Shown: piece by piece, positions 6,514 through 19,998 of the stretch
Position numbering within the stretch: position 1 is the stretch's first letter
How the letters are laid out: the number at the start of each line of letters is the position of its first letter
Assembly: GCA_046483455.1 (NCBI GenBank)
Contig: JAWODE010000147.1
Location: 1-32,280, forward strand
DNA: 32,280 nucleotides
DNA from: Candidatus Hydrogenedentota bacterium
GTDB taxonomy: Bacteria > Hydrogenedentota > Hydrogenedentia > Hydrogenedentales > SLHB01
Direction: 5' to 3'
Made by a program: the position numbers and the translations under genes
The notes under the pieces: model-generated
Databases searched by the model: none
Seen by the model: the letters and a program-made list of their open reading frames with translations, nothing else
Told to the model about the DNA's origin: nothing

Positions 6514-6529
6514 TGGCACAGTTTTTGAT
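6514..6529 (+). promoter_or_regulatory. Sigma-54-like -24/-12 promoter element (TGGCACAGTTTTTGAT)
   Basis: TGGCAC with correct spacing to TTGA (consensus TTGC, so one mismatch at the -12 C). It sits in the divergent intergenic region next to a sigma-54 activator gene. Caveat: the predicted start site would leave only about 5 nt of leader before ATG 6544. Confidence 0.4.
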
Positions 6530-6543: not shown

Positions 6544-6927
6544 ATGAAAGTCGCAATACCAGAGTGGCAAGGCCGGGTTTCTCCCGTTTTCGACGTGGCG
6601 GCTCAACTACTGATAGCCCAAGTTGAAAACGGCCAAGTGAACGAACAGTACACAATTGGGTTAAACACGAGAGACCTTCACGCGCGAGCGCGGCAAGTGG
6701 CCGAGTTGGGGATCGACGTGCTGATATGCGGCGCAATATCGTGGCCCCTCGAACTTGCGCTTGTCAACGCCGGCGTGGAGGTTGTCCCCCAGACCTGCGG
6801 GGATGTCCAGCACGTCCTCGCAACGTTTCTGGCGGGCCAGCTCGGCCAGAATGCGTTTCTCATGCCCGGCTGCTGCGGTCGGCGCCGCCGTTTTCGCGCA
6901 CAGCGCCGTCGTGGTCGGCCGGTATGA
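6544..6927 (+). CDS. NifX/NifB-like Fe-Mo cofactor-domain protein with Cys/Arg-rich tail
   Basis: MKVAIPEWQGRVSPVFDVA...GIDVLICGAIS...GVEVV follows the family layout. The C-terminal tail is PGCCGRRRRFRAQRRRGR. Confidence 0.65.
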   Translation: MKVAIPEWQGRVSPVFDVAAQLLIAQVENGQVNEQYTIGLNTRDLHARARQVAELGIDVLICGAISWPLELALVNAGVEVVPQTCGDVQHVLATFLAGQLGQNAFLMPGCCGRRRRFRAQRRRGRPV

Positions 6928-6992
6928 GAGGTGCCCGGTATCTTGACATGCATAGTGCTAACTAACACAAGCCCATGAAAAAGGAGGTTGTT

Positions 6993-7214
6993 ATGCCCCG
7001 AGGAGATGGAACAGGACCGCCGAGAGGCGGGCGTGGGCAAGGCCGGGGGCAGGGACGCGGACAAGGGCGCGGTAGAATGGGCGGCCCTTTTGCGGCCGGA
7101 CCCGGCGGACAGTGTGTGTGTCCGAAATGTGGCCAGACAGCGCCACACAGCGTTAGCCAGCCCTGCAACCAACAAACTTGTCCTAACTGCGGCACACCAA
7201 TGACACGTGCTTAG
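6993..7214 (+). CDS. DUF5320-type N-terminus (MPRGDGTGP) + RGQG repeats + C-terminal zinc ribbon
   Basis: AGGAGG lies 5 nt before ATG 6993. The protein starts MPRGDGTGPPRGGRGQGRGQGRGQGRGR, followed by CPKCG...CPNCG. Confidence 0.7.
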   Translation: MPRGDGTGPPRGGRGQGRGQGRGQGRGRMGGPFAAGPGGQCVCPKCGQTAPHSVSQPCNQQTCPNCGTPMTRA

Positions 7215-7272
7215 ATACAAGTGAAAACATGCAAACAAGCGGCTTAAACCGCTAGAAGAAAGGAGATTGATT

Positions 7273-7677
7273 ATGCCAGGTGGAGATGGAACAGGCCCGG
7301 CTGGAATGGGCCCAATGACGGGCCGCGCAGCAGGATATTGCGCGGGATATGCAGCGCCAGGCTTTGCAAACCCGGTTCCCGGACGTGGCTTCTGGGGTTG
7401 GGGCCGCGGTGGCGGCTGGGGCCGTGGTGGCGGCGGCTGGGGCCGGCGTAACTGGTTCTACGCAACCGGCCTGACGGGCTGGCAACGCGCCGGCTATGGG
7501 TACCCGATGGGAGGCACCACACCGTACGCAGCCCCCTACGCAACGCCATACGCCCCCCCTGTTTCTCAGGAGCAGGAAGTGGACATGCTCAAAGGCCAAG
7601 CCGAATACTTCGAGGACGCCCTGGCCGGGATAAAAAAGCGTCTCGAAGAACTCGAAAGCAAAGCCAAAGAAACCTGA
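7273..7677 (+). CDS. DUF5320 family protein (Gly/Arg/Trp-rich centre, C-terminal coiled coil)
   Basis: AAAGGAG RBS. N-terminus MPGGDGTGPAGMGPMTGRAAGYCAGY, a GRGFWGWGRGGGWGRGGGGWGRRNW centre, and the tail QEQEVDMLKGQAEYFEDALAGIKKRLEELE. Confidence 0.8.
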   Translation: MPGGDGTGPAGMGPMTGRAAGYCAGYAAPGFANPVPGRGFWGWGRGGGWGRGGGGWGRRNWFYATGLTGWQRAGYGYPMGGTTPYAAPYATPYAPPVSQEQEVDMLKGQAEYFEDALAGIKKRLEELESKAKET

Positions 7678-7691
7678 TCCTCACCCGAAAC

Positions 7692-7723
7692 GGAGGGCCG
7701 AAGCGTTTTGCGCTCGGCCCTCC
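7692..7723 (+). promoter_or_regulatory. Very stable intra-operon stem-loop without a U-tract
   Basis: GGAGGGCCGA(A)GCG-UUUUG-CGC-UCGGCCCUCC gives 13 bp with one bulge. It starts 15 nt after the DUF5320 stop codon and is followed by CTACACGGG, with no T run. Confidence 0.6.
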
Positions 7724-7748
7724 CTACACGGGAAGAAAGGATGGTACG

Positions 7749-7949
7749 ATGCCCCTCTTCAAGTATCGGTGTACCAAATGCGGAAATATCATTGAGGTCC
7801 TCGAAAAAGTTAACGCCCAAGGTCGGCACACGTGCGAGAAGTGCGGCAACCGTCGCATGGAGAAAATGATGTCGGCATTCAGCGTTGGTGCCGGGAATCA
7901 AGGCGGTACAGGAAGTTCCTGTCCGACGGGGACCTGTCCGCTATCGTAA
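7749..7949 (+). CDS. FmdB-family zinc-ribbon protein (CxxC-CxxC-SSSS type)
   Basis: MPLFKYRCTKCGNIIEV....HTCEKCG... and the tail GSSCPTGTCP. GAAAGGA RBS. Confidence 0.8.
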   Translation: MPLFKYRCTKCGNIIEVLEKVNAQGRHTCEKCGNRRMEKMMSAFSVGAGNQGGTGSSCPTGTCPLS

Positions 7950-8128
7950 CACGACGTTCCGCGGGTATTAACTCGGGCCTGCACTTTATAAAGCCTGCAG
8001 TAGCTCACATGTCTGAAATCAGGGGTAGGTAGTAGCGGTTTTTTGTGCAAGCTCTAAACGCATCTCAGAATTTTCAAAGAAAAACATTGGGAAAGCACAA
8101 ACCTTACTTACTTGAGGAGAGATCGTTT

Positions 8129-8563
8129 ATGGGACGAGGAATGGGCCGCGGTCGCGGTATGGGCCGGGGCAGAAAACGCCGAATGGGCATGGGAAGCGGA
8201 CGGTCGAGGTGGACAGCTCCACCGTCTGGCTTCGTGGGCGCAAATCGACCACCCCTGCAACCGGATAATAGTTTCTCAACACACGCTCCAAACAAAACGA
8301 GCGCTTTTCCAGCTGAAAAGAGTGAACAAACGGAAGGAACAAGAGAAGAAATGGGAGAAGTTAAGGAAGGTACGCAACGGTCGGGCTGGGTTGCAAATTT
8401 GAATGCGCGTCATTGTATTCTATGTGGCATATGCCAGACCGTTTGCCCCGTCGAGGCAATATCCATAGGTAGAAGTGTAATGATTAATCAGGACATTTGC
8501 ACCGGGTGCGGCGAGTGCGTGGCAGCGTGTCCTCAAGACGCGTTATCGTTAAAGAAACGCTAG
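8129..8563 (+). CDS. RG-rich N-terminus fused to a 2x[4Fe-4S] ferredoxin domain
   Basis: GAGGAG RBS before ATG 8129. N-terminus MGRGMGRGRGMGRGRKRRMGMGSGR, a low-complexity linker, then CILCGICQTVCP and CTGCGECVAACP. Confidence 0.7.
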   Translation: MGRGMGRGRGMGRGRKRRMGMGSGRSRWTAPPSGFVGANRPPLQPDNSFSTHAPNKTSAFPAEKSEQTEGTREEMGEVKEGTQRSGWVANLNARHCILCGICQTVCPVEAISIGRSVMINQDICTGCGECVAACPQDALSLKKR

Positions 8564-8615: not shown

Positions 8616-9968
8616 ATGAAACATGTCGATATCCTTGTTATCGGGGGCAGTGCGGCAGGTCTAACCGCCGCGATTACCGCGAGACGACACTATCCGGAGA
8701 AACAGACGTTTATCCTCCGCAAAGAGGAGCAAGTGCTGATTCCTTGTGGCATTCCATATATCTTCGGCACGGTGGGAAGCCCCGAGAAAAACTTAATACC
8801 TGACAAGGTACTGGCCCAAAACCAGGTAGACCTTCTTGTTGATGAAGCTACCGAGATCGACCGTGACAAAAACTGCGTTATTACCGCAAACGGGGAATCC
8901 GTCGGCTACGACCGCTTGGTTCTGGCCACGGGATCATTGCCGGCCATGCCGCCTATACCCGGCTTCGAACTCGAGAATGTGTTTCCAATATATAAAGATG
9001 TCGCCCATCTCCACCAAATGCAAGAAGCACTACAAGGCATATCTGATCTCGTCATCGTCGGCGGCGGGTTCATCGGCGTCGAATTCGCGGATGAATGCAA
9101 GAAAAGCCTCGGAGCAAACGTATCTATCGTTGAAATGCTTCCCCACTGCTTGATGCTGGCGTACGACGAAGAATTTTGTGTCCACGCCGAAAATCTGCTC
9201 CGCGAAAGAGATATTGAGCCTGTTACAAACACACGGGTTAAACGGATTGTTGGCACGGATTCCGTGGAAGGCGTCGAACTCGAAGACGGCAACACCATCC
9301 CGGCCCAAGCGGTGATTTTGGGCATCGGCGCCGCGGCAAACGTCACGCTTGCTGAACAGGCCGGACTCCAAATCGGCCCCACGGGCGGCATCGGTGTAGA
9401 CCGCACTATGCGGACATCTGACGAACATATCTACGCCTGCGGGGATTGCGCGGAAAAAGTCTCTTTCTTTGGCGGCCGGCCATCGGGTCTCAAGCTGGCT
9501 TCCATAGCAACCGCCGAGGCGCGCATCGCCGCCGCCAACCTCTTCGGCACACGGCGAGAAAGCATTGGTACGGTAGGCGTCTGGTCAACGGCCATCGGCG
9601 AAACGGCCTTCGCCACCGCCGGCCTTACCGAGAGGCTTGCCAAACGGCACGGCTACTACCACGTGGTCGGTACCGCGGAAGCCCCCAATCGCCATCCGGG
9701 CGGAATGCCGGGCGCGCATAATATGAAAGTAAAACTCGTATTCGAGAAACGCACGGGGATAATCCTTGGCGGCCAGGTCATGGGCGATAGTGCCGCGGGC
9801 GAGGTCATTAACGCTATCAGTGCGTGCATTCAGCAACGTATGACCGCGGAAGATGTTGCGATGTTTCAAACGGGAACACATCCCGCACTCACGGCCTCTC
9901 CGGTTTCCTACCAATTCGTAAATGCCGCCGAGGCTGCAATTGCGGCCCTGCGCGAAACCAGCAGCTAA
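8616..9968 (+). CDS. FAD-dependent pyridine nucleotide-disulfide oxidoreductase (NADH oxidase/CoA-disulfide reductase-like)
   Basis: FAD fingerprint DILVIGGSAAGLTAA, putative redox Cys in LIPCGIPY, second dinucleotide fold LVIVGGGFIGVEFA, and ACGDCA. Confidence 0.8.
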   Translation: MKHVDILVIGGSAAGLTAAITARRHYPEKQTFILRKEEQVLIPCGIPYIFGTVGSPEKNLIPDKVLAQNQVDLLVDEATEIDRDKNCVITANGESVGYDRLVLATGSLPAMPPIPGFELENVFPIYKDVAHLHQMQEALQGISDLVIVGGGFIGVEFADECKKSLGANVSIVEMLPHCLMLAYDEEFCVHAENLLRERDIEPVTNTRVKRIVGTDSVEGVELEDGNTIPAQAVILGIGAAANVTLAEQAGLQIGPTGGIGVDRTMRTSDEHIYACGDCAEKVSFFGGRPSGLKLASIATAEARIAAANLFGTRRESIGTVGVWSTAIGETAFATAGLTERLAKRHGYYHVVGTAEAPNRHPGGMPGAHNMKVKLVFEKRTGIILGGQVMGDSAAGEVINAISACIQQRMTAEDVAMFQTGTHPALTASPVSYQFVNAAEAAIAALRETSS

Positions 9969-9983: not shown

Positions 9984-10394
9984 ATGTGCACGATATTGAT
10001 CATAGATGACGACGCCGATTTTCGCGATGCCTGCAAGTTGATCCTTGAATCGGCCGGGTTCGCCGTTGCCGAAGCTGACGACCCCGAAGAAGGCTTAAAG
10101 AAGGTCGAGGCCGAAAATCCCGACCTTGTGATTCTCGATGTGCTCATGCCGCGCGAATATGAGGGTTTCGAGGTGGCCCGCCGCATTCGCGAAGAACTCG
10201 GGATGCACGACGTGCCGATCCTTATGCTGAGCGCGGTCCATGATGTGAAAAAAACACCCTATCGCTTTGAACCCAGTCAACCCTATTTGCCCGTTCAAGC
10301 ATTTCTGGATAAGCCTGTTGCGCCGGAAACGCTGCTGCGGAAAGTCCAGGATATGCTGGGCACACACCGGCACGAACCGGAAGAGCCGCTGTAA
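9984..10394 (+). CDS. Stand-alone CheY-like response regulator receiver
   Basis: ILIIDDD...PDLVILDVLMP (phospho-acceptor Asp context)...ILMLSA...K. No output domain. Confidence 0.85.
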   Translation: MCTILIIDDDADFRDACKLILESAGFAVAEADDPEEGLKKVEAENPDLVILDVLMPREYEGFEVARRIREELGMHDVPILMLSAVHDVKKTPYRFEPSQPYLPVQAFLDKPVAPETLLRKVQDMLGTHRHEPEEPL

Positions 10395-10435: not shown

Positions 10436-11128
10436 ATGATTTCACATGGACAAACCGACACCGGCCGTGCATTCGACTTCGGCAAACGCGCCCAGGATTA
10501 CGACCGGTGGTACACAACCCCCGAGGGGCAGGCGCACGACCGCGTACAGAAAGCGGACGTGCGCCACTTTCTCGGCCCGGCAACTTCGGGAATGCGCCTG
10601 CTCGACATAGGCTGCGGGACGGGGCATTGGAGCGGTTTCTTCGCCTCACTCGGGTATAACGTCGCAGGGGTAGATGTCGCCCCGGAAATGATTCAGGTGG
10701 CGCACAATCGCACTATGCCCGGCGTCGCTACTCAGGTAGCCGATGCACGTTTCTTGCCGTTTCAAGATGCATCGTTCGATGTGGCAGCCACCATGACGGT
10801 TCTCGAATTTCTTCCCGAACCCGCCACGGCGCTTCGAGAAATGGCGCGTTGTATAAAAATGCGGGGCCGTATGCTGATAGGGTGCCTGAACCGCTTTGCT
10901 TCTATCAATCAACAGCGTTTGGCCGAAGGCCGCGAACCCTATATATCAGGGCAACTCTTTTCGCCGGACGAACTTGCCGCATTGCTTCGGCCTTTCGGAA
11001 AGGTCCGAATGATAGCCTCAGAACCCGGAAACGGAAGAAATGAGACCGCTTCCAAGGCATTTAGGAAGGCCGGACCGTCTCGAACAGAATTGACTGGCCC
11101 CCTTATTATCGCGGAGGTGCAACGGTGA
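10436..11128 (+). CDS. Class I SAM-dependent methyltransferase
   Basis: Motif I LLDIGCGTGHWSGFFA and post-I VAGVDVAPEMI; Methyltransf_11-like. Confidence 0.8.
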   Translation: MISHGQTDTGRAFDFGKRAQDYDRWYTTPEGQAHDRVQKADVRHFLGPATSGMRLLDIGCGTGHWSGFFASLGYNVAGVDVAPEMIQVAHNRTMPGVATQVADARFLPFQDASFDVAATMTVLEFLPEPATALREMARCIKMRGRMLIGCLNRFASINQQRLAEGREPYISGQLFSPDELAALLRPFGKVRMIASEPGNGRNETASKAFRKAGPSRTELTGPLIIAEVQR

Positions 11129-11379
11129 TCATCCAGGCAGAGATCAGTCTTTATCCCTTGCGCGCGCAAAAAATCAGTCCGGTACTCGACGACTTTCTGA
11201 GCCATTTGCGAGCCCATGAACTCACTATTGAACCCGGCGCCATGAGCACCCATATTACAGGCGAGACCGATGAAGTGTTTTCGGCGCTGAATACAGCATT
11301 TGCGGCGGTGCTCAACGAGAATCAGGCGGTGCTGATCGTCAAAGTTTCGAACGCATGTCCGACGGAGCATCAACAATGA
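11125..11379 (+). CDS. MTH1187/YkoF-like (thiamine/HMP-binding fold) small protein
   Basis: IQAEISLYPL...HELTIEPGAMSTHITGE..EVF resembles the ferredoxin-like DUF77/YkoF repeat. The GTG start overlaps the upstream stop (GTGA). Confidence 0.5.
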   Translation: MIIQAEISLYPLRAQKISPVLDDFLSHLRAHELTIEPGAMSTHITGETDEVFSALNTAFAAVLNENQAVLIVKVSNACPTEHQQ

Positions 11380-12914
11380 TGAAATCTACACAGAAAGCCA
11401 CCTACTCGCCAACAAACACATTGACCCCGGAAGCCCTTGCATGGCGAGACAAGCGTCTCGCTCGAATCCGGCGTTGGGAAACCACCAACAAATACAAACC
11501 GTTTATTGACGAAGGGACCATCCAGGCAACGCTGGACCACAATAAGAGCCCTTCCAAAGAAGCGGTCTACGATATCATCGCCAAAGCACGCGCAAACGCG
11601 ACTACAGGAGCCATGCTTAGTCCCGACGAAGTGGCCTCCCTCACGGCAGTCACGGACCCGGAAATCTGGGAGGCCATTTTTGAGACGGCCTATTGGATAA
11701 AGAAAACGGTTTATGGCAACCGCATTGTGCTTTTCGCGCCGCTATATGTATCAAGCCCCTGTGTGAACAACTGCCTGTACTGCGGGTTCCGGGACAGCAA
11801 CCGCGCCGTCACCAAACGCACCCTCAGTTCTGAGGAACTGGATGAAGAACTCCGTGCCCTCGTTAATGCAGGCCACAAACGCCTTATCATGGTCTACGGC
11901 GAAAGCCCGGAAAACGATTATACGTACATTTGCGATACGATCGCCGCCGCGTACCGGTTCAAAGATGGGCCGGGAGAAATCCGCCGTGCCAATATCAACG
12001 CCGCTCCATTGTTCGTGAACGAATACCGCGACGTACGCTCTGTCGGCATTGGGACCTACCAGGTATTTCAGGAAACTTATCACCGGCCAACCTATGCATA
12101 CGTTCACCCGAAAGGGACACTGAAAGCAGAATACGATTGGCGCGCTTTTGCACTGCACCGCGCCCAGGAAGCCGAAATTGACGACGTGGCCATCGGGGTC
12201 CTTTTCGGTTTGTACGACTGGCGCTTTGAACTCCTGGGGCTTCTGGAACATGCCATGTCGCTCGAGCGGGAATTTGGAGTCGGCCCGCACACAATCTCGT
12301 ATCCCCGCCTGGAACCGGCGGAAGGCACGCCCTTCGCCAGCCATTCTCCGTGGCTCGTCAGCGACGAAGATTTCAAAAAGATCGTAGCCATTATCCGTTT
12401 GATGTGTCCATACACAGGGTCCATATTAACCGCACGCGAAGGCCCTGATCTTCGGCGAGAAGTAATGCGGAAAGGCGGCGTATCGCAAATGGACGCCGGG
12501 TCGCGAATCGCCGTCGGAGGATATGCTCAAATGAACCGGGACCATCAACCCGGCCGCCAACAATTCTTTTTGGCGGACAGACGCAGTCTGGATGCTTTCA
12601 TTCTGGACCTTTGTCGCGAAGGTTACCTCCCCTCTTTCTGCACGGCGGGCTACCGGGAAGGGCGAACCGGCGCCAATTTCATGCCCCTCGCCAAACATGC
12701 AACCGTCAACAACTTCTGCATCGCCAACGGCATACTCACGTTTCAAGAATATCTCACGGATTATGCTTCCGAAGCAGTCAAGCAATTGGGTCGCGAAACC
12801 ATCATTCCGGAATTTCTGGCATGGTTGGACGAACACGCCCCCGCGCTTGCACCGAAGGTCCGGACAAACCTCGAGCGTATGGAGCGCGAAGAAATCCGCG
12901 ATTTGCATTTTTGA
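11376..12914 (+). CDS. HydG/ThiH-family radical SAM aromatic-amino-acid lyase-like enzyme, with a variant C-terminal motif CX2GX22C
   Basis: APLYVSSPCVNNCLYCGF radical SAM motif. HydG-like C-terminal domain PSFCTAGYREGRTGANFM...NNFCIANGILTFQEYL. The ATG at 11376 overlaps the upstream stop (ATGA); the track ATG at 11355 is an alternative. Confidence 0.8.
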   Translation: MMKSTQKATYSPTNTLTPEALAWRDKRLARIRRWETTNKYKPFIDEGTIQATLDHNKSPSKEAVYDIIAKARANATTGAMLSPDEVASLTAVTDPEIWEAIFETAYWIKKTVYGNRIVLFAPLYVSSPCVNNCLYCGFRDSNRAVTKRTLSSEELDEELRALVNAGHKRLIMVYGESPENDYTYICDTIAAAYRFKDGPGEIRRANINAAPLFVNEYRDVRSVGIGTYQVFQETYHRPTYAYVHPKGTLKAEYDWRAFALHRAQEAEIDDVAIGVLFGLYDWRFELLGLLEHAMSLEREFGVGPHTISYPRLEPAEGTPFASHSPWLVSDEDFKKIVAIIRLMCPYTGSILTAREGPDLRREVMRKGGVSQMDAGSRIAVGGYAQMNRDHQPGRQQFFLADRRSLDAFILDLCREGYLPSFCTAGYREGRTGANFMPLAKHATVNNFCIANGILTFQEYLTDYASEAVKQLGRETIIPEFLAWLDEHAPALAPKVRTNLERMEREEIRDLHF

Positions 12915-12916
12915 CC

Positions 12917-14395
12917 ATGATCAAACCATCGACAAAAGAAGCCATCATTTCCGAGTGTCGGCGTCTATGCGACACCTTTGGACTCGCGCAGGTCTACCTG
13001 GCCGAAGCCATCGGCCCGCGCCGCCACTATCTGGCCGGTTACGGGCAACCTTCCCTCGACAAACCGGAACAGCTTCGGCTGTCAGACAGAATAGCGGTCC
13101 TTTGGCATGGTACTATATCGCCTGAAATACGCGGTATCATTAGGCGGAAGTTCCGCTCGCTCACAGACCTTGTCGAGCATGAACTATCGCTACGTGAACC
13201 AAGTCACTCGGGTATGCGTCATGCATCACAACCAAAAGGAAACAGGAATATGCACGCCGACCCCCTTACCCCTTACGGCAACCGTCCTATGGTCACGCCC
13301 ATTGTCAACGCGGTGAATTATGAATATGCTTCATTTGAAGTCTTGCGGCAGATCACCGATGGCGAGATTGACGGATACACGTATCACCGGGACGATAACC
13401 CGACGGTCCGGGAGGTCGAACACAAAATCGCGGCGCTGGAAGAGGCGGAAGACTGCATCGTGTGTACTTCGGGCATGGCCGCGTGCACGATGACCTTTTT
13501 GACCTATTTGCACACCGGCGACCATATGATCATCTTTCATGATACCTATGGCGCAAATTACAAAGTCTGCCTTATTCTGGAACAACTTGGTGTCGACATA
13601 ACGTGGGTGGATGCCAGCGATGCCGGTCAAATCGAGGACCATCTCAAACCCAACACCCGCATGATCTTTCTCGAAACCCCCAGCAATCCGCTCTGCAAAA
13701 TCATCGATTTAGAGCACATACGGCGCGCCGCCGACACGGTAGGCGCCATGATGGTCGTCGATAACACCTTTGCGACGCCTTACCACCAGCACCCGCTCAA
13801 ATACGGCGCGGACTTGGTTATCCATAGCGCCACAAAAGGACTCGGCGGACATAACGACATCATGGCCGGTGCGATTGCCGGTTCCAAGGAACATTACAAT
13901 GAATTGTGGTTCACGCGCCAAGCTATTGGAACAACGCTCGATGCTTATAGCGCATTTCTCCTGAGCCGCGGCCTGAAAACATTTGAATTGCGGGCCGCCA
14001 CCGTAGCCGAAACCGCTCAGAAAGTCGCCGAGGCTCTTGCACCGCATGCCAAAATATCCCGACTGTCCTATCCGGGACTCCCCAGTCATCCCGGCCACGA
14101 AATCGCCCAAAAACAGATGTTTCGCGGCTTCGGCGGCCTCATGGCCTTCGATATAGGCGATTGCCAGGACGATGCCAAGGAATTCATTAAGCACCTCAAG
14201 GTCATTTATCACGCCGTTAGTTTGGGCGCTACCGAATCCCTTATCTGCATCCCTTATCTGACGACGATGCTATATCTCCCGCCGGAAAGACGGACCACAT
14301 TCGGTGTGAAGGAAAACACCGTCCGCCTCAGCATCGGGATCGAGCCAGCAGAGCGGATTCTGGAAGATATCGACCAGGCATTGGCTGCCGTTTAA
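12917..14395 (+). CDS. Cys/Met-metabolism PLP-dependent enzyme (cystathionine gamma-synthase/lyase, methionine gamma-lyase family) with a possible 111-aa N-terminal extension
   Basis: PLP-lysine block HSATKGLGGHND plus ETPSNPL, VVDNTFATP and SLGATESL. An ATG at 13250 with an AAAGGAAACAGGA RBS would give a canonical 381-aa enzyme. The ATG at 12917 lies 2 nt after the upstream stop, and the frame is open throughout. Confidence 0.85.
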   Translation: MIKPSTKEAIISECRRLCDTFGLAQVYLAEAIGPRRHYLAGYGQPSLDKPEQLRLSDRIAVLWHGTISPEIRGIIRRKFRSLTDLVEHELSLREPSHSGMRHASQPKGNRNMHADPLTPYGNRPMVTPIVNAVNYEYASFEVLRQITDGEIDGYTYHRDDNPTVREVEHKIAALEEAEDCIVCTSGMAACTMTFLTYLHTGDHMIIFHDTYGANYKVCLILEQLGVDITWVDASDAGQIEDHLKPNTRMIFLETPSNPLCKIIDLEHIRRAADTVGAMMVVDNTFATPYHQHPLKYGADLVIHSATKGLGGHNDIMAGAIAGSKEHYNELWFTRQAIGTTLDAYSAFLLSRGLKTFELRAATVAETAQKVAEALAPHAKISRLSYPGLPSHPGHEIAQKQMFRGFGGLMAFDIGDCQDDAKEFIKHLKVIYHAVSLGATESLICIPYLTTMLYLPPERRTTFGVKENTVRLSIGIEPAERILEDIDQALAAV

Positions 14396-14412: not shown

Positions 14413-15285
14413 ATGTCCCGAATCGTAGTTCTCGTAGAGAATACAGCTTCCGGACAAGGATTCGTGGCAGAACATGGACTCGCATTCTGGCTCGAGCATA
14501 ATGGACACCGGATTCTATTCGATACCGGTCAAGGATGTGCCCTGCAGAACAACGCCCGCCTTCTCGACATCGGTCTCGAGACAGCGGACGCCATCGTGCT
14601 AAGCCACGGGCATTACGATCACACCGGCGGCCTCGCGGATGCACTCGACGTTGCCAACCCTCCGGCGGTTTTTCTGCACCCCGCGGCTCTCGCGCCAAAA
14701 TATACGAAACGAGCCGACGGCTCCGCTCGATATATCGGCATACCCAACCTCGACGAAGCGGCCCTACGTGAGAAAACTCAGTTGGTTTGGACCAAGGCGC
14801 CTACCGAAGTATCTCCAGGCATTCATATAACGGGCCCCGTTCCCCGCCAAACGGATTTTGAAGACGTGGGCGGCTCGTTCTTCGCGGATTCAGAATGCCG
14901 CGAACCCGACACGATGCCCGACGATCAAGCCTTGTATCTCGATACCGCGGAAGGAACGACGGTCATCCTGGGCTGCGCCCACGCGGGCGTTATCAACACA
15001 CTGCGCTACGTTCAGCAATTAACCCAAAACAGACCTGTTCACACGGTAATAGGCGGCACGCACCTTGTTTCGGCAAGCCCCGAACGCATGGATAAAACCG
15101 TTGAAGAGCTCACCGGCCTCGGCATCCAGCGCCTGATGCCTTGTCACTGCACAGGCTTTCCTGCAATGGCGCGTTTATGGCACGAATTCCCACAGGAATA
15201 TGTACCTTGTACTGTGGGGACAACAATAAACTTGGACATGCACCCCGCGGAATCCACGGCACAAAACACGGAGCAACAGCAATGA
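14413..15285 (+). CDS. MBL-fold metallo-hydrolase family protein (MJ0301-like subgroup)
   Basis: AEHGLAFWLEHNGHRILFDTG and LSHGHYDHTGGL. AAGGAGG RBS. Confidence 0.75.
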   Translation: MSRIVVLVENTASGQGFVAEHGLAFWLEHNGHRILFDTGQGCALQNNARLLDIGLETADAIVLSHGHYDHTGGLADALDVANPPAVFLHPAALAPKYTKRADGSARYIGIPNLDEAALREKTQLVWTKAPTEVSPGIHITGPVPRQTDFEDVGGSFFADSECREPDTMPDDQALYLDTAEGTTVILGCAHAGVINTLRYVQQLTQNRPVHTVIGGTHLVSASPERMDKTVEELTGLGIQRLMPCHCTGFPAMARLWHEFPQEYVPCTVGTTINLDMHPAESTAQNTEQQQ

Positions 15286-16112
15286 ATCACCCAAACGAAT
15301 CGGCCACCACCAGCCCAACGCCTTTTCTGAACGCGTTTTCAGAAAGCGCCGTTTCCAAAGCAATTCTTGAAGGCTACCACGAAAAATTCGGGAAAGCCCT
15401 GATTAGCGATGTCATAATTGTCGGAGCAGGTCCCGCGGGATTGGTAGCGGCATGGCATCTTGCGCGTGCCGGTTACCAGGTAGTCCTCCTCGAAAAGCGA
15501 CTCAGCCCCGGCGGCGGAATTTGGGGCGGCAGCATGGGAATGAACGAAATCGTTGTGGAAGAAGCGGCTTGCGAAATCCTCGAGGAAATCGGCGTTAGAT
15601 ATTCTCGACGCGAAGACCTCTTTTCGGCCGACGCCGCTGAATTGGCCTGCGCCTTATGTCTAAAGGCGCTGAACGCAGGCGCCATATACCTCAACCTTAT
15701 AACCGCCGAAGACATTTGCGCGCATGAAGGACAGGTCACCGGTATCGCCGCGAACCGCTCCCTTCTTGTGAACCAACTCCCCATCGACCCCATCGTTTTC
15801 AAATCGCGCGCCGTCATTGACGCGACCGGCCACGAAGCCGTTCTGGTGAACTGCCTCTACCGCCGGGGCCTTGTCGAAAACGCCACCGGCGGTCTTCCGG
15901 GCGAAAACGTCATGGACGCTCCCCAGGGAGAGGAATTCGTCATAAACCATGTCGCGGAAGTATACCCAAATCTGTGGATCACGGGAATGAGTGTCTGCAC
16001 AACGTTGGGGGGACCCCGAATGGGCCCCATTTTCGGGGGAATGTTGCTCTCGGGGGCACAGGTGGCTTCCCAAGTGGACGAGGCGCTAAAAACCCGCAAA
16101 AAAGAACCATGA
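15282..16112 (+). CDS. Thi4-family thiazole synthase-like flavoprotein-fold enzyme (archaeal/sulfide-dependent type)
   Basis: DVIIVGAGPAGLVAA, LSPGGGIWGGSM, IDATGHEA, GGPRMGPIFGGMLLSG. ATGA start/stop overlap with the upstream gene. Confidence 0.85.
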   Translation: MNHPNESATTSPTPFLNAFSESAVSKAILEGYHEKFGKALISDVIIVGAGPAGLVAAWHLARAGYQVVLLEKRLSPGGGIWGGSMGMNEIVVEEAACEILEEIGVRYSRREDLFSADAAELACALCLKALNAGAIYLNLITAEDICAHEGQVTGIAANRSLLVNQLPIDPIVFKSRAVIDATGHEAVLVNCLYRRGLVENATGGLPGENVMDAPQGEEFVINHVAEVYPNLWITGMSVCTTLGGPRMGPIFGGMLLSGAQVASQVDEALKTRKKEP

Positions 16113-17455
16113 CTGAACTGAACGATGCAGATAGCTGGTTGTCTTCCGAAGCAACATCGTGCCTGACCGAAATAGGTTTGCGACCGGGGCAGACCGTGCT
16201 CGATTTCGGATGCGGTAAAGGCCGTTACAGTATCCCCGCGGCGCAGGTGATAGGTGAACACGGTAAACTCTACGCCGCGGACAAGAACCCCGCTACGCTG
16301 GAGACAATACATCTCTGGGCTTCAACCATGGGAATCGGCCACATTGACACGCTAGACACCCATGGCAAAGTTTATACGCCCTTAAAAAAGAACTCCGTTG
16401 ACGCAGCGTTGCTCCACGATGTCCTGCACTTGATTGGATGGAAGGAAAAAGCGGGACGAACCATTCGAAAAAGCACCTATCGAGACCGTGAATCGCTTCT
16501 CCAGGAAATGTATCGAATCTTAAAATGCAACGGCATTCTGTCTGTTTTTTGCCCCCACCTTGCAACACACACGGACGTTACTTCGGAATACGCCATCATC
16601 CGAGAAATCATGAATGCAGGCTTCCGCCTTGAAAGAGAAATGTACCGGGAGATTATCCACGATGATCGCCTGCAGCAGAGTCATCTCTGCCGCTTTTCGA
16701 AGAAATGCTCCAGCGCCGAAAATGAAGAACCTTTTGCTTTCTCCTATGACGCCCCCTTGTTCCAAAAAGCGCTGAGAAACGACGGACACCATTTCGGCGA
16801 GGTACTTGTGCTCGCAAACCTCGTAGAACCTGGAATGACAGTTCTCGAACTTGGCGCCAACCGCGGCGTTACGACCGTTGCGCTTGCCAGGGCCACCGGT
16901 TTAGAAGGACAAGTCCACGCCTTTGAACCCGTTCCCGAATACTATGCGGCGCTCGTACAAAATCTACAACGAAACAGAATAGAGAACACCCAAGTTCATC
17001 AATTCGCCGTTACCGACAAAGAAAGTGTCTCTTCCTACTATAAGCACGGGGAAGGCAGTGGAATCGTACACGCGCATGAGGCTGAGACTATCCTCGTCGG
17101 AACCACTTCTCTCGACCACTTTGTAAAGACAGAAGATGTCGGCCAAGTTGACGTTATCAACATGGATTGCGAAGGAGCCGAATTGCTTGCGCTTCAAGGG
17201 GCAACGAACACGTTGCAAAAGCATGCCCCGCGAATATTTTGTGAGATTCATCATGAGTATCTTTCACGCATAGGTCAATCGGTCGGCGATATCGTGACCT
17301 TCCTGCATGCGCTCGATTTTCGCGCCATGCCGATCCGTGTCGAAGCACTCGGCGAACACGTTGGGTTCGAGGACTGCACCCACATCTACGCAGCAAAAGA
17401 CGAGCCCCTCCCGGACATCAAGTCCTTATTTCGTTGGCGCCGAGAAGGAATTTGA
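16109..17455 (+). CDS. Fusion of a class I SAM methyltransferase and an FkbM-family methyltransferase
   Basis: N-terminal domain: VLDFGCGKGRYSIPAA...LYAADKNP. C-terminal domain: VLELGANRGVTTVALA...HAFEPVPEYY...VDVINMDCEGAELLAL. ATGA overlap with the upstream gene. Confidence 0.75.
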   Translation: MTELNDADSWLSSEATSCLTEIGLRPGQTVLDFGCGKGRYSIPAAQVIGEHGKLYAADKNPATLETIHLWASTMGIGHIDTLDTHGKVYTPLKKNSVDAALLHDVLHLIGWKEKAGRTIRKSTYRDRESLLQEMYRILKCNGILSVFCPHLATHTDVTSEYAIIREIMNAGFRLEREMYREIIHDDRLQQSHLCRFSKKCSSAENEEPFAFSYDAPLFQKALRNDGHHFGEVLVLANLVEPGMTVLELGANRGVTTVALARATGLEGQVHAFEPVPEYYAALVQNLQRNRIENTQVHQFAVTDKESVSSYYKHGEGSGIVHAHEAETILVGTTSLDHFVKTEDVGQVDVINMDCEGAELLALQGATNTLQKHAPRIFCEIHHEYLSRIGQSVGDIVTFLHALDFRAMPIRVEALGEHVGFEDCTHIYAAKDEPLPDIKSLFRWRREGI

Positions 17456-17461: not shown

Positions 17462-17626
17462 ATGGTCTATATAGACGAACAACGCTGTATCGGATGTGGC
17501 ACCTGTGTTTCAGTGTGCCCGTCAGGTTTCGAGTTGATAGAAGGAAAAGCCAAGGTAAAAGACGAGACGGCGGATTGCATACAAGACGCGGTGATAGCAT
17601 GCCCGCGAGGCGCTATCACGACATGA
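17462..17626 (+). CDS. Small single-cluster ferredoxin (54 aa)
   Basis: Below the ORF-track length cutoff. MVYIDEQRCIGCGTCVSVCPSGFELIEGKAKVKDETADCIQDAVIACPRGAITT contains CxxCxxCxxxCP and a distal CP. It starts 6 nt after the upstream stop. Confidence 0.8.
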   Translation: MVYIDEQRCIGCGTCVSVCPSGFELIEGKAKVKDETADCIQDAVIACPRGAITT

Positions 17627-17676
17627 GTTCGAGTCTCATGCTATCCGATTCGCTTGCGAAATAAGGAGGATAAAAA

Positions 17677-18045
17677 ATGGAAAAGCCTCTGCTTCGGAGT
17701 TGTGAAGCCTGCGGCAAAGAAATAAGCCGCCATAGCGCTTTTTGCCGCCATTGCGGCCACCCTCAGAAACTGCCTCTTATTATGTGGCTATTGGTGCTTT
17801 TTCTGCTTATGATGGTGGCGTTCTATCTCGCGTTTTGCATCTATTGCATGCTAAACGTGCAAGGATTACGGGTCATGCAACAAGCACTTGCGGACTCGGC
17901 CTATGGCACTCAACACAGCATGTCTCATGCCACGGTTCATGTTTTCCCCCTTCCCTGTGTCGGACCAATCGTTGCGGTGTGTCGAAACCGGCTTTCAGGA
18001 AACGCTTCAATTGCTCCACCGTCGCTCGACAGGCCAAAGGATTAA
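17677..18045 (+). CDS. Zinc-ribbon membrane protein, function unknown
   Basis: AAGGAGGA RBS. CEACG...CRHCG zinc ribbon followed by one hydrophobic helix (LPLIMWLLVLFLLMMVAFYLAFCIYCML). Confidence 0.6.
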   Translation: MEKPLLRSCEACGKEISRHSAFCRHCGHPQKLPLIMWLLVLFLLMMVAFYLAFCIYCMLNVQGLRVMQQALADSAYGTQHSMSHATVHVFPLPCVGPIVAVCRNRLSGNASIAPPSLDRPKD

Positions 18046-18054
18046 GGTGATGTT

Positions 18055-19957: not shown

Positions 19958-19998
19958 TTGGTTTAGCAAGGCAAAGCACTGGTTTAGGGAGAACGACA

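What the first reader, a model, noticed from the sequence alone, without database searches (positions are those of the whole stretch)
12639..12719. HydG-like enzyme keeps the exact CX2CX22C spacing but has Gly in place of the middle cysteine
Seen: the C-terminal domain reads SFC-TA-G-YREGRTGANFMPLAKHATVNNF-C. Cys codons are at 12639-12641 and 12717-12719, with GGC at 12648-12650 where HydG has the second Cys. Established: in HydG the CX2CX22C motif ligates the auxiliary [4Fe-4S] cluster. That cluster carries the dangler Fe on which Fe(CO)2(CN)(Cys) is assembled, and ThiH lacks this domain altogether. Inference: this is a HydG-length protein of about 512 aa with one cluster ligand missing. It is likely neither a canonical HydG nor a ThiH, and it may have an altered auxiliary site or a different product. 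GGC versus TGC is a single substitution, so a sequencing error must be excluded.
Basis: partly seen in the sequence, partly recalled or inferred. Interest (0 to 1): 0.65.

Follow-up and report, generated by a model that had tools for sequence, protein, structure and literature searches.

The report
HydG paralogue lacking one cluster cysteine
The glycine is real and conserved: it marks a widespread subfamily of the hydrogenase-maturation enzyme HydG that lies not with hydrogenase genes but inside "orange protein" (ORP) metal-cluster operons, so tyrosine-derived ligand chemistry may serve a second, unknown cofactor.

Summary
ORF 11376-12914 (+) is a 512-aa HydG-family radical SAM protein whose C-terminal motif reads C422-TA-G425-...-C448 (TGC 12639, GGC 12648, TGC 12717).

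It is not a sequencing error:
- Independent assemblies from two studies show the same bases.
- 107 of 194 collected relatives carry Gly with no substitute Cys in the loop.
- 31 loci use all four Gly codons at this position.

These pure-Gly sequences group together in a tree. Their nearest relatives are canonical CX2C HydGs (about 66% identity) that sit in hydA-hydG-hydE-hydF clusters. Only two substitutions define the group against that sister, C425G and D433A, and both lie in the auxiliary-cluster loop.

Genomic context separates the two types cleanly. ORP-type genes (NifX-like, CbiA-ferredoxin ATPases, DUF5320) flank 26 of 32 pure-Gly loci and 0 of 57 others. hydA/E/F flank 1 of 32 versus 35 of 57. 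A Hydrogenedentes relative carries a canonical CX2C HydG next to hydF-hydE.

Best reading: a neofunctionalised HydG paralogue with a remodelled auxiliary Fe-S site that feeds an ORP-linked metallocofactor pathway. Its product is unknown. A normal HydG role with an alternative ligand (Cys344) is not excluded.

The parts
11376..12914 (+). HydG-family radical SAM tyrosine-lyase-like gene, pure-Gly (CX2G) type, 512 aa. Its ATG overlaps the stop of the upstream gene by 4 nt.
   Evidence: TIGR03955 HydG scores 428.5 bits against a cut-off of 312. Pfam finds Radical_SAM and BATS. The AF2 model has pLDDT 92.3 and pTM 0.92. The best fold match is 4wcx_A, with TM (target-normalised) 0.97 and rmsd 1.5 A.
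11760..11783 (+). Radical SAM CX3CX2C motif (Cys129, Cys133, Cys136).
   Evidence: These three Cys are invariant in all 194 aligned family members.
12288..12290 (+). His305 in GVGPHT, equivalent to TiHydG His265, the ligand of the dangler Fe.
   Evidence: The 4wcx sequence index equals native numbering plus 14. This was calibrated on F81 and E133 from PMC9046217. His305 is invariant and lies just before strand 306-308 of the model.
12405..12407 (+). Cys344 (RLMCPYTG), a candidate substitute ligand. Most HydGs have Val here.
   Evidence: Cys in 104 of 107 pure-Gly sequences, but also in the nearest canonical relatives. It lies in the loop between helix 330-343 and strand 348-351, on the bottom face of the barrel next to the His305 strand. 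No distance was measured.
12639..12719 (+). Auxiliary-cluster motif C422-X2-G425-X22-C448, with Ala433 (12672-12674) 8 residues after the Gly.
   Evidence: for the sequence. C425G and D433A are the only clade-wide changes against the sister canonical group. The Gly codon varies synonymously among loci.
12917..14395 (+). In-frame fusion of a small hydG-downstream protein (about 98 aa, motif G.RRH[FY]LAG.G) with a Cys/Met-metabolism PLP enzyme (cystathionine gamma-synthase / methionine gamma-lyase family).
   Evidence: One ORF frame runs through 12611-14395. PF01053 matches at E = 7e-118. The same fusion was called as a 492-aa gene in L088. The small protein is homologous to the gene just downstream of canonical hydG in L084 and L085.
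11125..11379 (+). YkoF/Thiamine_BP-like small protein (84 aa) immediately upstream, translationally coupled.
   Evidence: PF01910 and PF07615 match. A YkoF-like gene is found at 7 pure-Gly loci only. Other classes have a TM1266-like protein in this position instead (31 loci).
10436..11128 (+). Class I SAM methyltransferase, with a weak match to the DVU_1556 family.
   Evidence: Conserved at 10 of 32 pure-Gly loci.
9984..10394 (+). Stand-alone response-regulator receiver domain (136 aa).
   Evidence: ORF. A gene in the same position was called with PF00072 in L087 and L089.
8616..9968 (+). Pyridine nucleotide-disulfide oxidoreductase (CoA-disulfide-reductase-like).
   Evidence: Present at 6 of 32 pure-Gly loci.
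8045..8563 (+). 2x[4Fe-4S] ferredoxin-domain protein with an Arg/Gly-rich N-terminus.
6544..7949 (+). Start of the + strand gene array: NifX-like (Nitro_FeMo-Co) 6544-6927, DUF5320-like RG-rich proteins 6975-7214 and 7267-7677, and a zinc-ribbon protein 7749-7949.
   Evidence: ORFs. 6544-6927 matches the C-terminal NifX-like part of MrpORP. Homologues at other loci were called with PF02579, PF17253 and PF09723. tblastn presence matrix.
6514..6528 (+). Candidate sigma54 -24/-12 element, TGGCACAGTTTTTGA, 16 nt upstream of the 6544 start codon.
   Evidence: It has one mismatch to TGGCAC-N5-TTGC. The count over the whole window is not above chance (4 found, 2.5 expected), so only the position is suggestive.
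4982..6397 (-). OrpR-like sigma54 enhancer-binding protein (PAS, AAA+, HTH) with a CX8CX3C motif in the PAS domain.
   Evidence: Pfam domains. The sequence PCCDVFHASICESNC has the same spacing as the conserved C52/C61/C65 of D. vulgaris OrpR (PMC8359166).
1940..4862 (-). Divergent ORP arm: AAA/ABC-like ATPase 4212-4862, Mrp/NBP35 Fe-S carrier 2933-3769, NifX-like 2496-2912 and NifX-like 1940-2278. Together the Mrp and the last NifX-like gene form a split MrpORP.
   Evidence: NF041136 MrpORP: residues 2-248 of the model match 2933-3769 (382 bits) and residues 265-365 match 1940-2278 (133 bits). Pfam domains.
14413..15285 (+). Metallo-beta-lactamase-fold protein (TM1679-like).
   Evidence: Present at 16 of 32 pure-Gly loci and 0 of 57 others.
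15282..17455 (+). Thi4-type sulfide-dependent ADP-thiazole synthase homologue (15282-16112) and a two-domain methyltransferase, class I plus FkbM (16109-17455). Both have 4-nt overlaps with their neighbours.
   Evidence: TIGR00292 scores 241 bits against a cut-off of 148. Pfam domains. Start codons. Thi4 occurs at only 2 of 32 loci, so it is not a core member.
17462..19005 (+). Small ferredoxin (17462-17626), membrane/zinc-ribbon protein (17677-18045), and a second radical SAM enzyme of about 316 aa with CX3CX2C and a C-terminal winged-helix region (18055-19005).
   Evidence: The second radical SAM gene is at 20 of 32 pure-Gly loci and 0 of 57 others.
19025..21727 (+). ABC ATPase, ABC-2 permease and TPR protein that close the array.
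   Evidence: The same trio follows the radical SAM gene in L087 and L088.

Best explanation
The gene encodes a functional, selectively maintained member of a distinct paralogous HydG subfamily ("CX2G", ORP-associated).

What is retained. The radical SAM cluster, the TIM barrel, the C-terminal domain, the dangler-Fe histidine and the first and third auxiliary-cluster cysteines are all kept. It therefore most likely still cleaves tyrosine with SAM to p-cresol plus 2-iminoacetate and passes the latter down the barrel to a C-terminal Fe-S site.

What is changed. That site has been remodelled by two clade-defining substitutions to the smallest side chains. The second Cys ligand became Gly. The residue 8 positions on became Ala; in other HydGs this position is Asp, Glu or Cys.

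Consequence (inferred). One iron of the cluster is left without its loop ligand. It may be held instead by Cys344 from the barrel floor, or be open to an exogenous thiol or partner.

Pathway (inferred). The enzyme is co-operonic with OrpR/sigma54-controlled ORP proteins: NifX-like cofactor binders, an Mrp/NBP35 carrier, DUF5320 proteins and ferredoxins. A second radical SAM enzyme, an MBL-fold protein, methyltransferases, a PLP Cys/Met enzyme fused to the small hydG-partner protein, and an ABC exporter are in the same array. I infer that it supplies a tyrosine-derived ligand (CN-, CO, or an Fe(CO)x(CN) synthon) to an ORP-linked metallocofactor pathway rather than to the H-cluster.

Shown here: sequence features, conservation, fold and genomic association. 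Inferred: catalysis, the state of the cluster, the product and its recipient.
For: 1. The Gly is real and conserved.
2. The protein scores above the HydG trusted cut-off, and its model superposes on TiHydG including the C-terminal domain.
3. The radical SAM Cys, His305, Cys422 and Cys448 are invariant.
4. Against the sister canonical group, the only clade-wide changes are C425G and D433A.
5. In an NJ tree, 91 of 93 pure-Gly sequences form one group with no other class inside it. The sister group is the Thermodesulfatator/Desulfonauticus CX2C HydGs, which lie in hydA / TM1266-like / hydG / small-protein / aspartase-like / hydE / hydF clusters (Wolinella).
6. Context: ORP core genes flank 26 of 32 pure-Gly loci and 0 of 57 others (p = 4e-17). 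hydA/E/F flank 1 of 32 versus 35 of 57 (p = 1.5e-8). Called genes with Pfam annotation confirm this on independent contigs.
7. The window's EBP has OrpR's CX8CX3C spacing, and the Mrp plus NifX-like pair matches MrpORP.
8. The window's HydE is of Hydrogenedentes type. A Hydrogenedentes species with 73% identical HydE has a canonical CX2C HydG 5.6 kb from hydF-hydE-rex. That HydG is only 52% identical to the window protein but 66-68% identical to the HydGs that accompany the most similar HydEs. The phylum's hydFE partner is therefore a different HydG.
9. [quoted passage not shown] Changes at this site are therefore expected to alter the product.
Against: - No biochemical data exist.
- No genome-wide census could be run, so I could not show that a single genome carries both HydG types, nor that any pure-Gly genome lacks hydA/hydF.
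- In the window and in its closest relative (L089), hydF-hydE-rex lies only about 10 kb from the Gly-type gene, and no canonical hydG is visible on either contig.
- Bona fide hyd-operon HydGs tolerate relocation of the middle Cys to +3 or +8. Cys344 might therefore restore normal ligation.
- Bootstrap support for exact monophyly of the pure-Gly group is low (0.22-0.24). In about half of the replicates the sister CX2C group falls inside it.
- The physiological role and native cofactor of ORP proteins are themselves unknown, according to the literature read here (PMC6345978, PMC8359166).
Confidence: 0.55

Rival explanations
1. It is an ordinary HydG that matures the [FeFe]-hydrogenase H-cluster. 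The middle cluster ligand has simply moved, for example to Cys344 on the barrel floor or to Glu428. Its position in ORP operons reflects shared redox regulation or Fe-S supply, not a new function.
For: - It exceeds the HydG equivalog cut-off.
- All other catalytic and ligand residues are conserved.
- The middle Cys is demonstrably mobile in HydGs that sit in hyd operons: the Cys+3 class at L036, L039, L049 and L052, and the Cys+8 class at L029.
- Cys344 is present in 104 of 107 pure-Gly sequences and lies near the His305 strand.
- hydE, and in L089 also hydF, lies about 10 kb away with no other hydG in view.
Against: - 0 of 31 other pure-Gly loci have hydA, hydE or hydF within 10 kb, against 35 of 57 for other classes.
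- A related Hydrogenedentes species keeps a canonical CX2C HydG beside hydFE.
- Cys344 and Glu428 are already present in the CX2C sister group, so they did not arise to compensate for the loss.
- The second clade-defining change removes another potential ligand position (D433A) rather than adding one.
Confidence: 0.27
2. The auxiliary site no longer holds a full [4Fe-4S]-plus-dangler unit. The enzyme then works like C-terminally impaired HydG or like ThiH: a tyrosine lyase that releases 2-iminoacetate, or cyanide plus formate, for downstream enzymes of the cluster, without making Fe-CO species.
For: Published truncation and dangler-less HydG variants give p-cresol, 2-iminoacetate, some cyanide and formate, but no CO (PMC10114646). 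Two potential ligand positions are replaced by Gly and Ala. The cluster encodes further tailoring enzymes: a second radical SAM, methyltransferases, a PLP enzyme and an MBL-fold protein.
Against: The C-terminal domain is under strong purifying selection. The loop LPSFCTAGYREGRTGANFMPLAKHATVKNFC is nearly invariant across phyla. Cys422, Cys448 and His305 are invariant. This pattern is not expected for a vestigial metal site.
Confidence: 0.1
3. It is a ThiH-type enzyme for thiamine thiazole synthesis, as suggested by the adjacent Thi4-like and YkoF/Thiamine_BP-like genes.
For: A Thi4 homologue (TIGR00292, 241 bits) and a Thiamine_BP/YkoF-like protein are in the same array.
Against: - ThiH TIGR02351 scores 225.6 against a cut-off of 380.
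- The full HydG C-terminal domain is present.
- No thiG, thiS or thiF was seen among the annotated genes of the window.
- From general knowledge, the Thi4 route does not use 2-iminoacetate.
- Thi4 occurs at only 2 of 32 pure-Gly loci.
Confidence: 0.03
4. It is an artefact: a sequencing or assembly error, or a decaying pseudogene.
For: GGC differs from TGC by one base.
Against: Independent assemblies agree. 107 relatives share the Gly with no substitute Cys. All four Gly codons are used at this position. The ORF is intact and translationally coupled to its neighbours. The model is confident.
Confidence: 0.01

Closest known systems
[quoted passage not shown]
   Same: The length, the radical SAM CX3CX2C motif, the ThiH-like TIM barrel and the about 90-aa C-terminal domain at the barrel bottom all match. 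So do the first and third Cys of CX2CX22C at the exact spacing and the dangler-Fe His. The window protein is 45% identical to TiHydG, with TM 0.97 and rmsd 1.5 A. A homologous small gene lies immediately downstream.
   Different: The middle Cys is Gly, with no relocated Cys in the loop. Asp/Glu/Cys at +8 is Ala. The gene is embedded in OrpR/ORP operons, not with hydA/hydE/hydF. The upstream partner is YkoF-like instead of TM1266-like.
HydG lineages with a relocated middle cysteine (CTAGYRCGRTG in Riflebacteria/Omnitrophota/Cloacimonadota MAGs; CTAGYRxGRTGC in Ammonifex/Desulfotomaculales), seen here and not found in the literature searched
   Same: They have Gly at the same position and the same overall motif spacing.
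   Different: They keep a third Cys 3 or 8 residues on. They have Val at position 344. They sit with TM1266-like, hydE, hydF and hydA genes, and none has ORP genes nearby.
ThiH, 2-iminoacetate synthase (TIGR02351; PDB 7pd1)
   Same: The radical SAM tyrosine-lyase core is shared (E = 4e-40 to 7pd1; TM, target-normalised, 0.89).
   Different: ThiH lacks the C-terminal cluster domain (PMC10114646). The window protein scores below the ThiH cut-off and has no thiG/thiS context.
ORP (orange protein) complex and its regulator OrpR of Desulfovibrio vulgaris Hildenborough (orp3-5, orp7-9; MrpORP NF041136)
   Same: A divergent pair of gene arrays flanks a sigma54 EBP whose PAS domain carries CX8CX3C. 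NifX-like (Nitro_FeMo-Co) proteins and an Mrp/NBP35 carrier matching MrpORP are present. CbiA-ferredoxin ATPases and DUF5320 are present at related loci.
   Different: As described in the papers read, the D. vulgaris orp operons contain no radical SAM gene. Here the array is extended by the HydG paralogue, a second radical SAM enzyme, an MBL-fold protein, methyltransferases, a PLP enzyme and an ABC exporter. In the window MrpORP is split into two genes, and no CbiA-ferredoxin ATPase was detected.
NifB / NifX-NafY pairing in nitrogenase cofactor assembly (analogy only)
   Same: A radical SAM enzyme that builds an unusual metallocluster is encoded beside small Nitro_FeMo-Co-family carrier proteins (general knowledge; PF02579 hits).
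   Different: The radical SAM enzyme here is HydG-like, not NifB-like. No nitrogenase genes are nearby. The analogy is not tested.

Membership tests
HydG (TIGR03955) | Profile score above the curated equivalog cut-off | tested here: met
   428.5 bits against a cut-off of 312.15.
HydG (TIGR03955) | Radical SAM CX3CX2C cluster motif | tested here: met
   Cys129, Cys133 and Cys136 are invariant.
HydG (TIGR03955) | C-terminal domain folded at the bottom of the TIM barrel | tested here: met
   The AF2 model has pLDDT 92.3. It superposes on 4wcx_A over 471 columns with TM 0.97 and rmsd 1.5 A.
HydG (TIGR03955) | Three conserved Cys (CX2CX22C) ligating the auxiliary [4Fe-4S] cluster | tested here: not met
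   The motif reads C422-X2-G425-X22-C448, with no Cys at +3 or +8.
HydG (TIGR03955) | Conserved His ligand of the dangler Fe (TiHydG His265) | tested here: met
   His305 in GPHT is invariant. The numbering was calibrated through F81 and E133.
HydG (TIGR03955) | Genomic or phyletic association with hydA, hydE and hydF | tested here: not met
   hydA/E/F lie within 10 kb at 1 of 32 pure-Gly loci, against 35 of 57 for other classes. The single case is the window itself, where hydE belongs to a hydF-hydE-rex unit. Whole-genome co-occurrence was not testable.
HydG (TIGR03955) | Produces CO, CN- and an Fe(Cys)(CO)2(CN) synthon from tyrosine | not testable with these tools
   Needs biochemistry.
ThiH (TIGR02351) | Profile score above cut-off and absence of a C-terminal cluster domain | tested here: not met
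   225.6 bits against a cut-off of 380. The C-terminal domain is present.
ThiH (TIGR02351) | Context with thiG, thiS or thiF | tested here: not met
   None was found among the annotated window genes. Only a Thi4-type gene is present.
ORP/OrpR gene cluster (D. vulgaris type) | sigma54 EBP with a PAS domain carrying three conserved Cys (C52/C61/C65 spacing), placed between divergent operons | tested here: met
   The EBP at 4982-6397 (-) contains C-X8-C-X3-C within PCCDVFHASICESNC, and gene arrays lie on both sides.
ORP/OrpR gene cluster (D. vulgaris type) | MrpORP-type Mrp/NBP35 carrier with a NifX-like domain, and further Nitro_FeMo-Co-family proteins | tested here: met
   NF041136 matches are split over 2933-3769 and 1940-2278. 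Further NifX-like genes lie at 2496-2912 and 6544-6927.
ORP/OrpR gene cluster (D. vulgaris type) | Orp3/Orp4-type ATPases (CbiA/MinD-like with a ferredoxin domain) | tested here: inconclusive
   Not detected in the window, which has only a ferredoxin-domain protein at 8045-8563. Present at 18 of 32 related pure-Gly loci.
ORP/OrpR gene cluster (D. vulgaris type) | sigma54-dependent transcription of the array that contains the HydG-like gene | tested here: inconclusive
   A one-mismatch -24/-12 element lies at 6514-6528. Genes are tightly packed or overlapping from 10436 to 17455. Sparse metatranscriptome contigs match. No transcript mapping was done.

The most novel reading that the evidence does not exclude
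ORP ("orange protein") systems of many uncultured anaerobes assemble or traffic a metallocofactor that carries tyrosine-derived diatomic ligands (CN-/CO) or an organometallic Fe unit. The unit is made by a dedicated HydG paralogue whose auxiliary cluster has been opened at two positions so that it can be handed to NifX-like carriers. This would be a third biological use of such chemistry besides hydrogenases, and it would give the long-enigmatic ORP complex a biochemical function.
Probability: 0.25. Interest if true: 0.9.

Novelty: new variant of a known kind. Interest (0 to 1): 0.62.

Why it matters
HydG is the only enzyme known to build an Fe(CO)2(CN) organometallic unit from an amino acid. 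Its three-Cys auxiliary site is treated as a family hallmark.

This work shows three things:
- The middle ligand is evolutionarily mobile even in bona fide HydGs.
- A large, conserved subfamily has dropped it altogether.
- That subfamily has moved from hydrogenase clusters into OrpR-controlled ORP operons in Hydrogenedentota, Planctomycetota, Kiritimatiellia, Lentisphaerae, Acidobacteriota and other MAG lineages.

Three consequences follow:
1. Databases currently annotate these proteins as hydrogenase maturases, so counts of 'HydG' overestimate hydrogenase maturation capacity in these phyla.
2. The subfamily is a natural mutant series for testing how the auxiliary cluster controls CO versus CN- formation and product release.
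3. It gives a concrete, testable lead to the unknown cofactor and function of ORP complexes.

Tried and rejected
1. Sequencing error. Rejected by independent contigs, 107 homologues and synonymous Gly codons.

2. Cys344 as a compensatory substitution proved by covariation. Cys344 tracks the pure-Gly clade (104 of 107), but it is also present in the CX2C sister groups. The correlation is therefore phylogenetic, and Cys344 stays a candidate only. I could not measure its distance to the cluster site, because model coordinates are not exposed.

3. A trans ligand from the small downstream protein. Its Cys residues are not conserved across pure-Gly loci.

4. Equating that small protein with Shewanella HydX. 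HydX is reported as 23.9 kDa, much larger than this protein, and homology was not tested.

5. Strict monophyly of the pure-Gly clade. The NJ topology supports it (91 of 93), but the exact-clade bootstrap is only 0.22-0.24. No maximum-likelihood program was available.

6. My first mapping of the dangler His to His292 was wrong. Calibration with F81 and E133 places it at His305. Both residues are invariant.

8. Literature searches found no paper that links HydG-like genes to ORP clusters or describes a CX2G subclade. The library covers open-access papers only.

9. The window-wide sigma54 motif count is not above chance.
Full report
**1. The observation**

The ORF at 11355/11376-12914 (+) translates to a HydG-length protein. 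The database copy, P0001, is 512 aa and starts at the ATG at 11376, which overlaps the stop of the upstream gene by 4 nt. I use the 512-aa numbering throughout.

The C-terminal motif reads LPSF-C422-TA-G425-YREGRTG-A433-NFMPLAKHATVNNF-C448. The codons are TGC 12639-12641, GGC 12648-12650 and TGC 12717-12719, exactly as reported. In the phmmer alignment to TiHydG (4wcx), Gly425 lies opposite the middle Cys of CX2CX22C.

**2. Not an error**

- A Logan contig of run X1 (depth 9.6) and a contig from a different study (X3) cover the codon without a difference.
- A sediment metatranscriptome contig (X11) also spans the motif, with no change listed there. DNA carry-over in that library cannot be excluded.
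- 85 of the 120 best database hits (57-86% identity) read CTAG at the motif.
- In 31 related loci the Gly codon is GGC 13, GGA 9, GGT 7, GGG 2. This is the signature of a long-maintained glycine.

**3. Family assignment**

- The protein scores 428.5 bits on TIGR03955 (HydG, cut-off 312) and only 225.6 on ThiH (cut-off 380).
- An AlphaFold2 model built on a 64-sequence alignment has pLDDT 92.3 and pTM 0.92.
- The model superposes on TiHydG 4wcx_A with TM (target-normalised) 0.97 and rmsd 1.5 A over 471 columns, including the C-terminal domain. ThiH and NosL follow at a distance.
- The radical SAM CX3CX2C motif, Cys422 and Cys448 are invariant.
- The dangler-Fe ligand, TiHydG His265, maps to His305 (GVGPHT). 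I calibrated the offset of the 4wcx sequence index (native + 14) with F81 and E133 as given in PMC9046217. His305 is invariant.

**4. Variation of the motif across the family**

Among 194 HydG-family sequences (120 database proteins plus loci from 80 genomes) I find five states:

| State | Count |
|---|---|
| Canonical CX2C | 36 |
| CX2C plus an extra Cys at +8 | 14 |
| Gly with a Cys at +3 (CTAGYRCGRTG) | 21 |
| Gly with a Cys at +8 (RTGC) | 15 |
| Gly with no substitute Cys in the loop ("pure-Gly", the window's type) | 107 |

One further sequence has Ser with a Cys at +8.

The Cys+3 and Cys+8 classes sit with TM1266-like, hydE, hydF and hydA genes. The middle ligand is therefore mobile in genuine HydGs, and Gly at position 425 alone is not diagnostic.

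**5. What defines the pure-Gly group**

- In an NJ tree, 91 of 93 dereplicated pure-Gly sequences form one group that contains no other class.
- The next group out is a set of CX2C HydGs from Thermodesulfatator, Desulfonauticus and Desulfohalobiaceae, about 66% identical to the window protein.
- Exact-clade bootstrap is low (0.22-0.24). In about half of the replicates the sister group moves inside. The direction and number of changes are therefore not settled.
- Only two positions are at least 90% conserved in the pure-Gly group and different in that sister group while also departing from the family majority: C425G and D433A.
- Position 433 is exactly where the Cys+8 lineages carry their Cys. 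Elsewhere it is usually Asp or Glu.

Both clade-defining changes therefore replace potential metal-facing side chains of the cluster loop with the smallest residues. The rest of the enzyme, including residues around the tyrosine site, is unchanged relative to canonical relatives.

**6. A possible substitute ligand**

Cys344 (RLMCPYTG; Val in most HydGs) is present in 104 of 107 pure-Gly sequences. In the model it lies in the loop between helix 330-343 and strand 348-351. That is the bottom face of the barrel, next to the strand that follows His305. [quoted passage not shown]

However, Cys344 is also present in the CX2C sister groups, so it did not arise as compensation. I could not measure distances.

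**7. Genomic context**

I took reference proteins from Pfam-annotated contigs and searched them with tblastn against 88 loci plus the window:

| Gene set within 10 kb | Pure-Gly loci | Other classes | Fisher p |
|---|---|---|---|
| ORP core (NifX-like / CbiA-ferredoxin ATPase / DUF5320) | 26 of 32 | 0 of 57 | 4e-17 |
| Second radical SAM gene (about 310 aa) | 20 of 32 | 0 of 57 | 6e-12 |
| MBL-fold gene | 16 of 32 | 0 of 57 | 3e-9 |
| hydA / hydE / hydF | 1 of 32 | 35 of 57 | 1.5e-8 |

The loci are phylogenetically related, so these p-values overstate independence. The split is nevertheless complete.

The nearest CX2C relatives lie in textbook clusters: hydA large and small subunits, TM1266-like, hydG, a small protein, an aspartase-like lyase, hydE and hydF. 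This holds for T. indicus, D. submarinus and W. succinogenes.

**8. The window as an extended ORP locus**

- A sigma54 enhancer-binding protein (4982-6397, -) carries C-X8-C-X3-C in its PAS domain. This is the spacing of the three conserved Cys that bind the redox-sensing [4Fe-4S] cluster of D. vulgaris OrpR.
- On the minus side lie an ATPase, an Mrp/NBP35 carrier and two NifX-like genes. The Mrp and the last NifX-like gene match the two halves of MrpORP (NF041136).
- On the plus side a tightly packed array runs from 6544 to about 21727. In order it holds:
  - a NifX-like gene, two RG-rich DUF5320-like proteins, a zinc ribbon, a ferredoxin and a CoA-disulfide-reductase-like flavoprotein;
  - a receiver domain, a methyltransferase and a YkoF-like protein;
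  - the HydG paralogue;
  - the small hydG-partner protein fused in frame to a Cys/Met PLP enzyme;
  - an MBL-fold protein, a Thi4 homologue and a double methyltransferase;
  - a small ferredoxin, a membrane protein and the second radical SAM enzyme;
  - an ABC exporter and a TPR protein.
- A one-mismatch -24/-12 element lies 16 nt upstream of the first gene. Only its position is suggestive.

**9. What is retained from the hyd module**

The 81-104-aa protein encoded immediately downstream of hydG (motif G.RRH[FY]LAG.G; no Pfam or NCBIfam family) is clearly homologous between canonical clusters and pure-Gly loci. In the window and in L088 it is fused to the PLP enzyme.

The upstream small protein differs. 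It is TM1266-like in 31 loci of other classes and YkoF-like in 7 pure-Gly loci.

**10. Is this the organism's only HydG?**

The window also carries a HydE (64-1194; TIGR03956 304.5 bits against a cut-off of 254.6) followed by Rex. Its best matches are Hydrogenedentes HydEs.

On the closest related contig (L089, HydE 84% identical) the order is hydF-hydE-rex, then the ORP cluster, then the Gly-type hydG. No other hydG is in view. This is the main support for the rival reading.

In another Hydrogenedentes species (HydE 73% identical), hydF-hydE-rex is followed 5.6 kb away by a TM1266-like gene and a canonical 466-aa HydG with CTACYRLGRTGEDFMDLAKPGKIKDHC. That HydG is 52% identical to the window protein. 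It is 66-68% identical to the CX2C HydGs of Desulfovibrionaceae and Syntrophaceae; one of these loci, the Syntrophaceae locus L057, carries a HydE 69% identical to the window's.

So the HydE lineage of this phylum has a canonical HydG partner, and the Gly-type gene has a different ancestry. I could not test co-occurrence within one genome.

**11. Mechanism**

Established from the literature:
- HydG cleaves tyrosine at the radical SAM site.
- 2-iminoacetate then travels down the barrel to the auxiliary [4Fe-4S] cluster. The fourth Fe of that cluster is bridged by free cysteine to a dangler Fe(II) held by His265.
- Fe(Cys)(CO)2(CN) is assembled on the dangler Fe.

Inferred for the window protein:
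- The same tyrosine lyase chemistry takes place.
- The C-terminal Fe-S site is still functional, given the near-invariant loop, Cys422, Cys448 and His305.
- Ligation at one Fe is altered: either Cys344 or an open or exogenous ligand.
- The consequence is an altered product or altered release, directed to the NifX-like/Mrp proteins of the operon rather than to HydE/HydF.
- The PLP Cys/Met enzyme fused to the HydG-partner protein could supply the thiol amino acid or sulfide used at this site. This is speculation.

**12. Known or new**

NCBI names several of these proteins "HydG", and JGI names them "2-iminoacetate synthase". I found no open-access paper that describes a CX2G subclade, a relocated middle Cys, or a HydG-like gene in ORP clusters.

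The papers read here describe the D. vulgaris ORP operons as orp3-5 and orp7-9 without a radical SAM gene, and describe the function of the complex as only putative.

I class the finding as a new variant of a known kind. The enzyme family and the ORP system are both known. Their association and the two-substitution remodelling of the auxiliary site appear not to have been described.

Noticed in passing
window 64-1194 (+) and 1214-1915 (+); L089 8701-11820: A HydE above the curated cut-off (TIGR03956, 304.5 against 254.6) sits at the contig edge and is followed by a Rex repressor. On the closest related contig the unit is hydF-hydE-rex, so hydF probably lies just off the window's 5' end. Its best matches are Hydrogenedentes, which suggests the source phylum.
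   Followed up: yes
L029, L035-L059 (several), P0090-P0120 (several): Many HydGs have Gly at the middle-Cys position but a Cys 3 residues on (CTAGYRCGRTG; Riflebacteria, Omnitrophota, Cloacimonadota, Marinifilaceae MAGs) or 8 residues on (RTGC; Ammonifex, Desulfotomaculales). Campylobacter and Wolinella have both CX2C and the +8 Cys. Where hyd-type genes (TM1266-like, hydE, hydF, hydA) are in range, these lineages sit with them. CX2CX22C is therefore not universal in genuine HydG.
   Followed up: partly
window 12917-14395 (+); L088 11530-13008: The small protein that follows hydG in both canonical and Gly-type loci is fused in frame to a cystathionine-gamma-synthase/methionine-gamma-lyase-family PLP enzyme. 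In other loci (L081, L083, L087) it is a separate gene of 90-104 aa. It matches no Pfam or NCBIfam model.
   Followed up: partly
window 1940-2278 (-) and 2933-3769 (-): The two domains of MrpORP (NF041136) are encoded by separate genes, with another NifX-like gene (2496-2912) between them.
   Followed up: partly
window 6975-7214, 7267-7677, 8045-8200 (+): Three consecutive proteins carry long Arg/Gly-rich low-complexity N-terminal stretches, for example GRGQGRGQGRGQGRG and MGRGMGRGRGMGRGRKRRMG. Two are DUF5320-like and one is a ferredoxin-domain protein.
   Followed up: no
window 15282-16112 (+): A Thi4-type sulfide-dependent ADP-thiazole synthase homologue (TIGR00292, 241 bits against a cut-off of 148) is translationally coupled within the array. 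It occurs at only 2 of 32 related loci.
   Followed up: partly
window 25343-28905 (+): A TPP-dependent 2-oxoacid:ferredoxin oxidoreductase alpha-like gene (POR_N plus TPP_enzyme_C) is followed by a POR gamma-like gene and a phenylacetate-CoA-ligase-like gene (AMP-binding_C_2). This arrangement is typical of aromatic amino-acid fermentation. It may be unrelated to the HydG paralogue, although tyrosine is HydG's substrate.
   Followed up: no
L083 8084-10041: In a 4.27-Mb contig an IS66 element (TnpB plus transposase) is inserted directly upstream of the Gly-type hydG and overlaps its annotated start. It separates the gene from the NifX-like/CbiA-ferredoxin genes.
   Followed up: no
L003 / P0015: The closest homologues carry conflicting taxon labels. 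P0015 is labelled Hydrogenedentota by NCBI, and its longest contig has the same length (12,598 nt) and the same 76% identity as locus L003, which is labelled 'uncultured Nitrospirales' and is probably the same contig. Taxon labels of these MAG contigs should be treated with caution.
   Followed up: no
L025 / P0091 and L031 (Clostridium acetireducens DSM 10703): Three Gly-type sequences lack Cys344. P0091 and L025 instead have Cys263 and Cys367. L031 has an extra Cys 5 residues before Cys422 (VCAQGCIPSFC). Neither locus (L025, L031) shows ORP or hyd genes within range. L031 comes from a cultured isolate and could serve for experiments.
   Followed up: partly
window 5142-5490, 11064-11363, 12393-12821, 19479-19846: Short contigs of a sediment metatranscriptome (X11, oligo-dT library) match the OrpR-like gene, the methyltransferase/YkoF-like genes, the HydG paralogue and the ABC ATPase at 95-99% identity. 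This hints at in situ expression. DNA carry-over cannot be excluded.
   Followed up: partly
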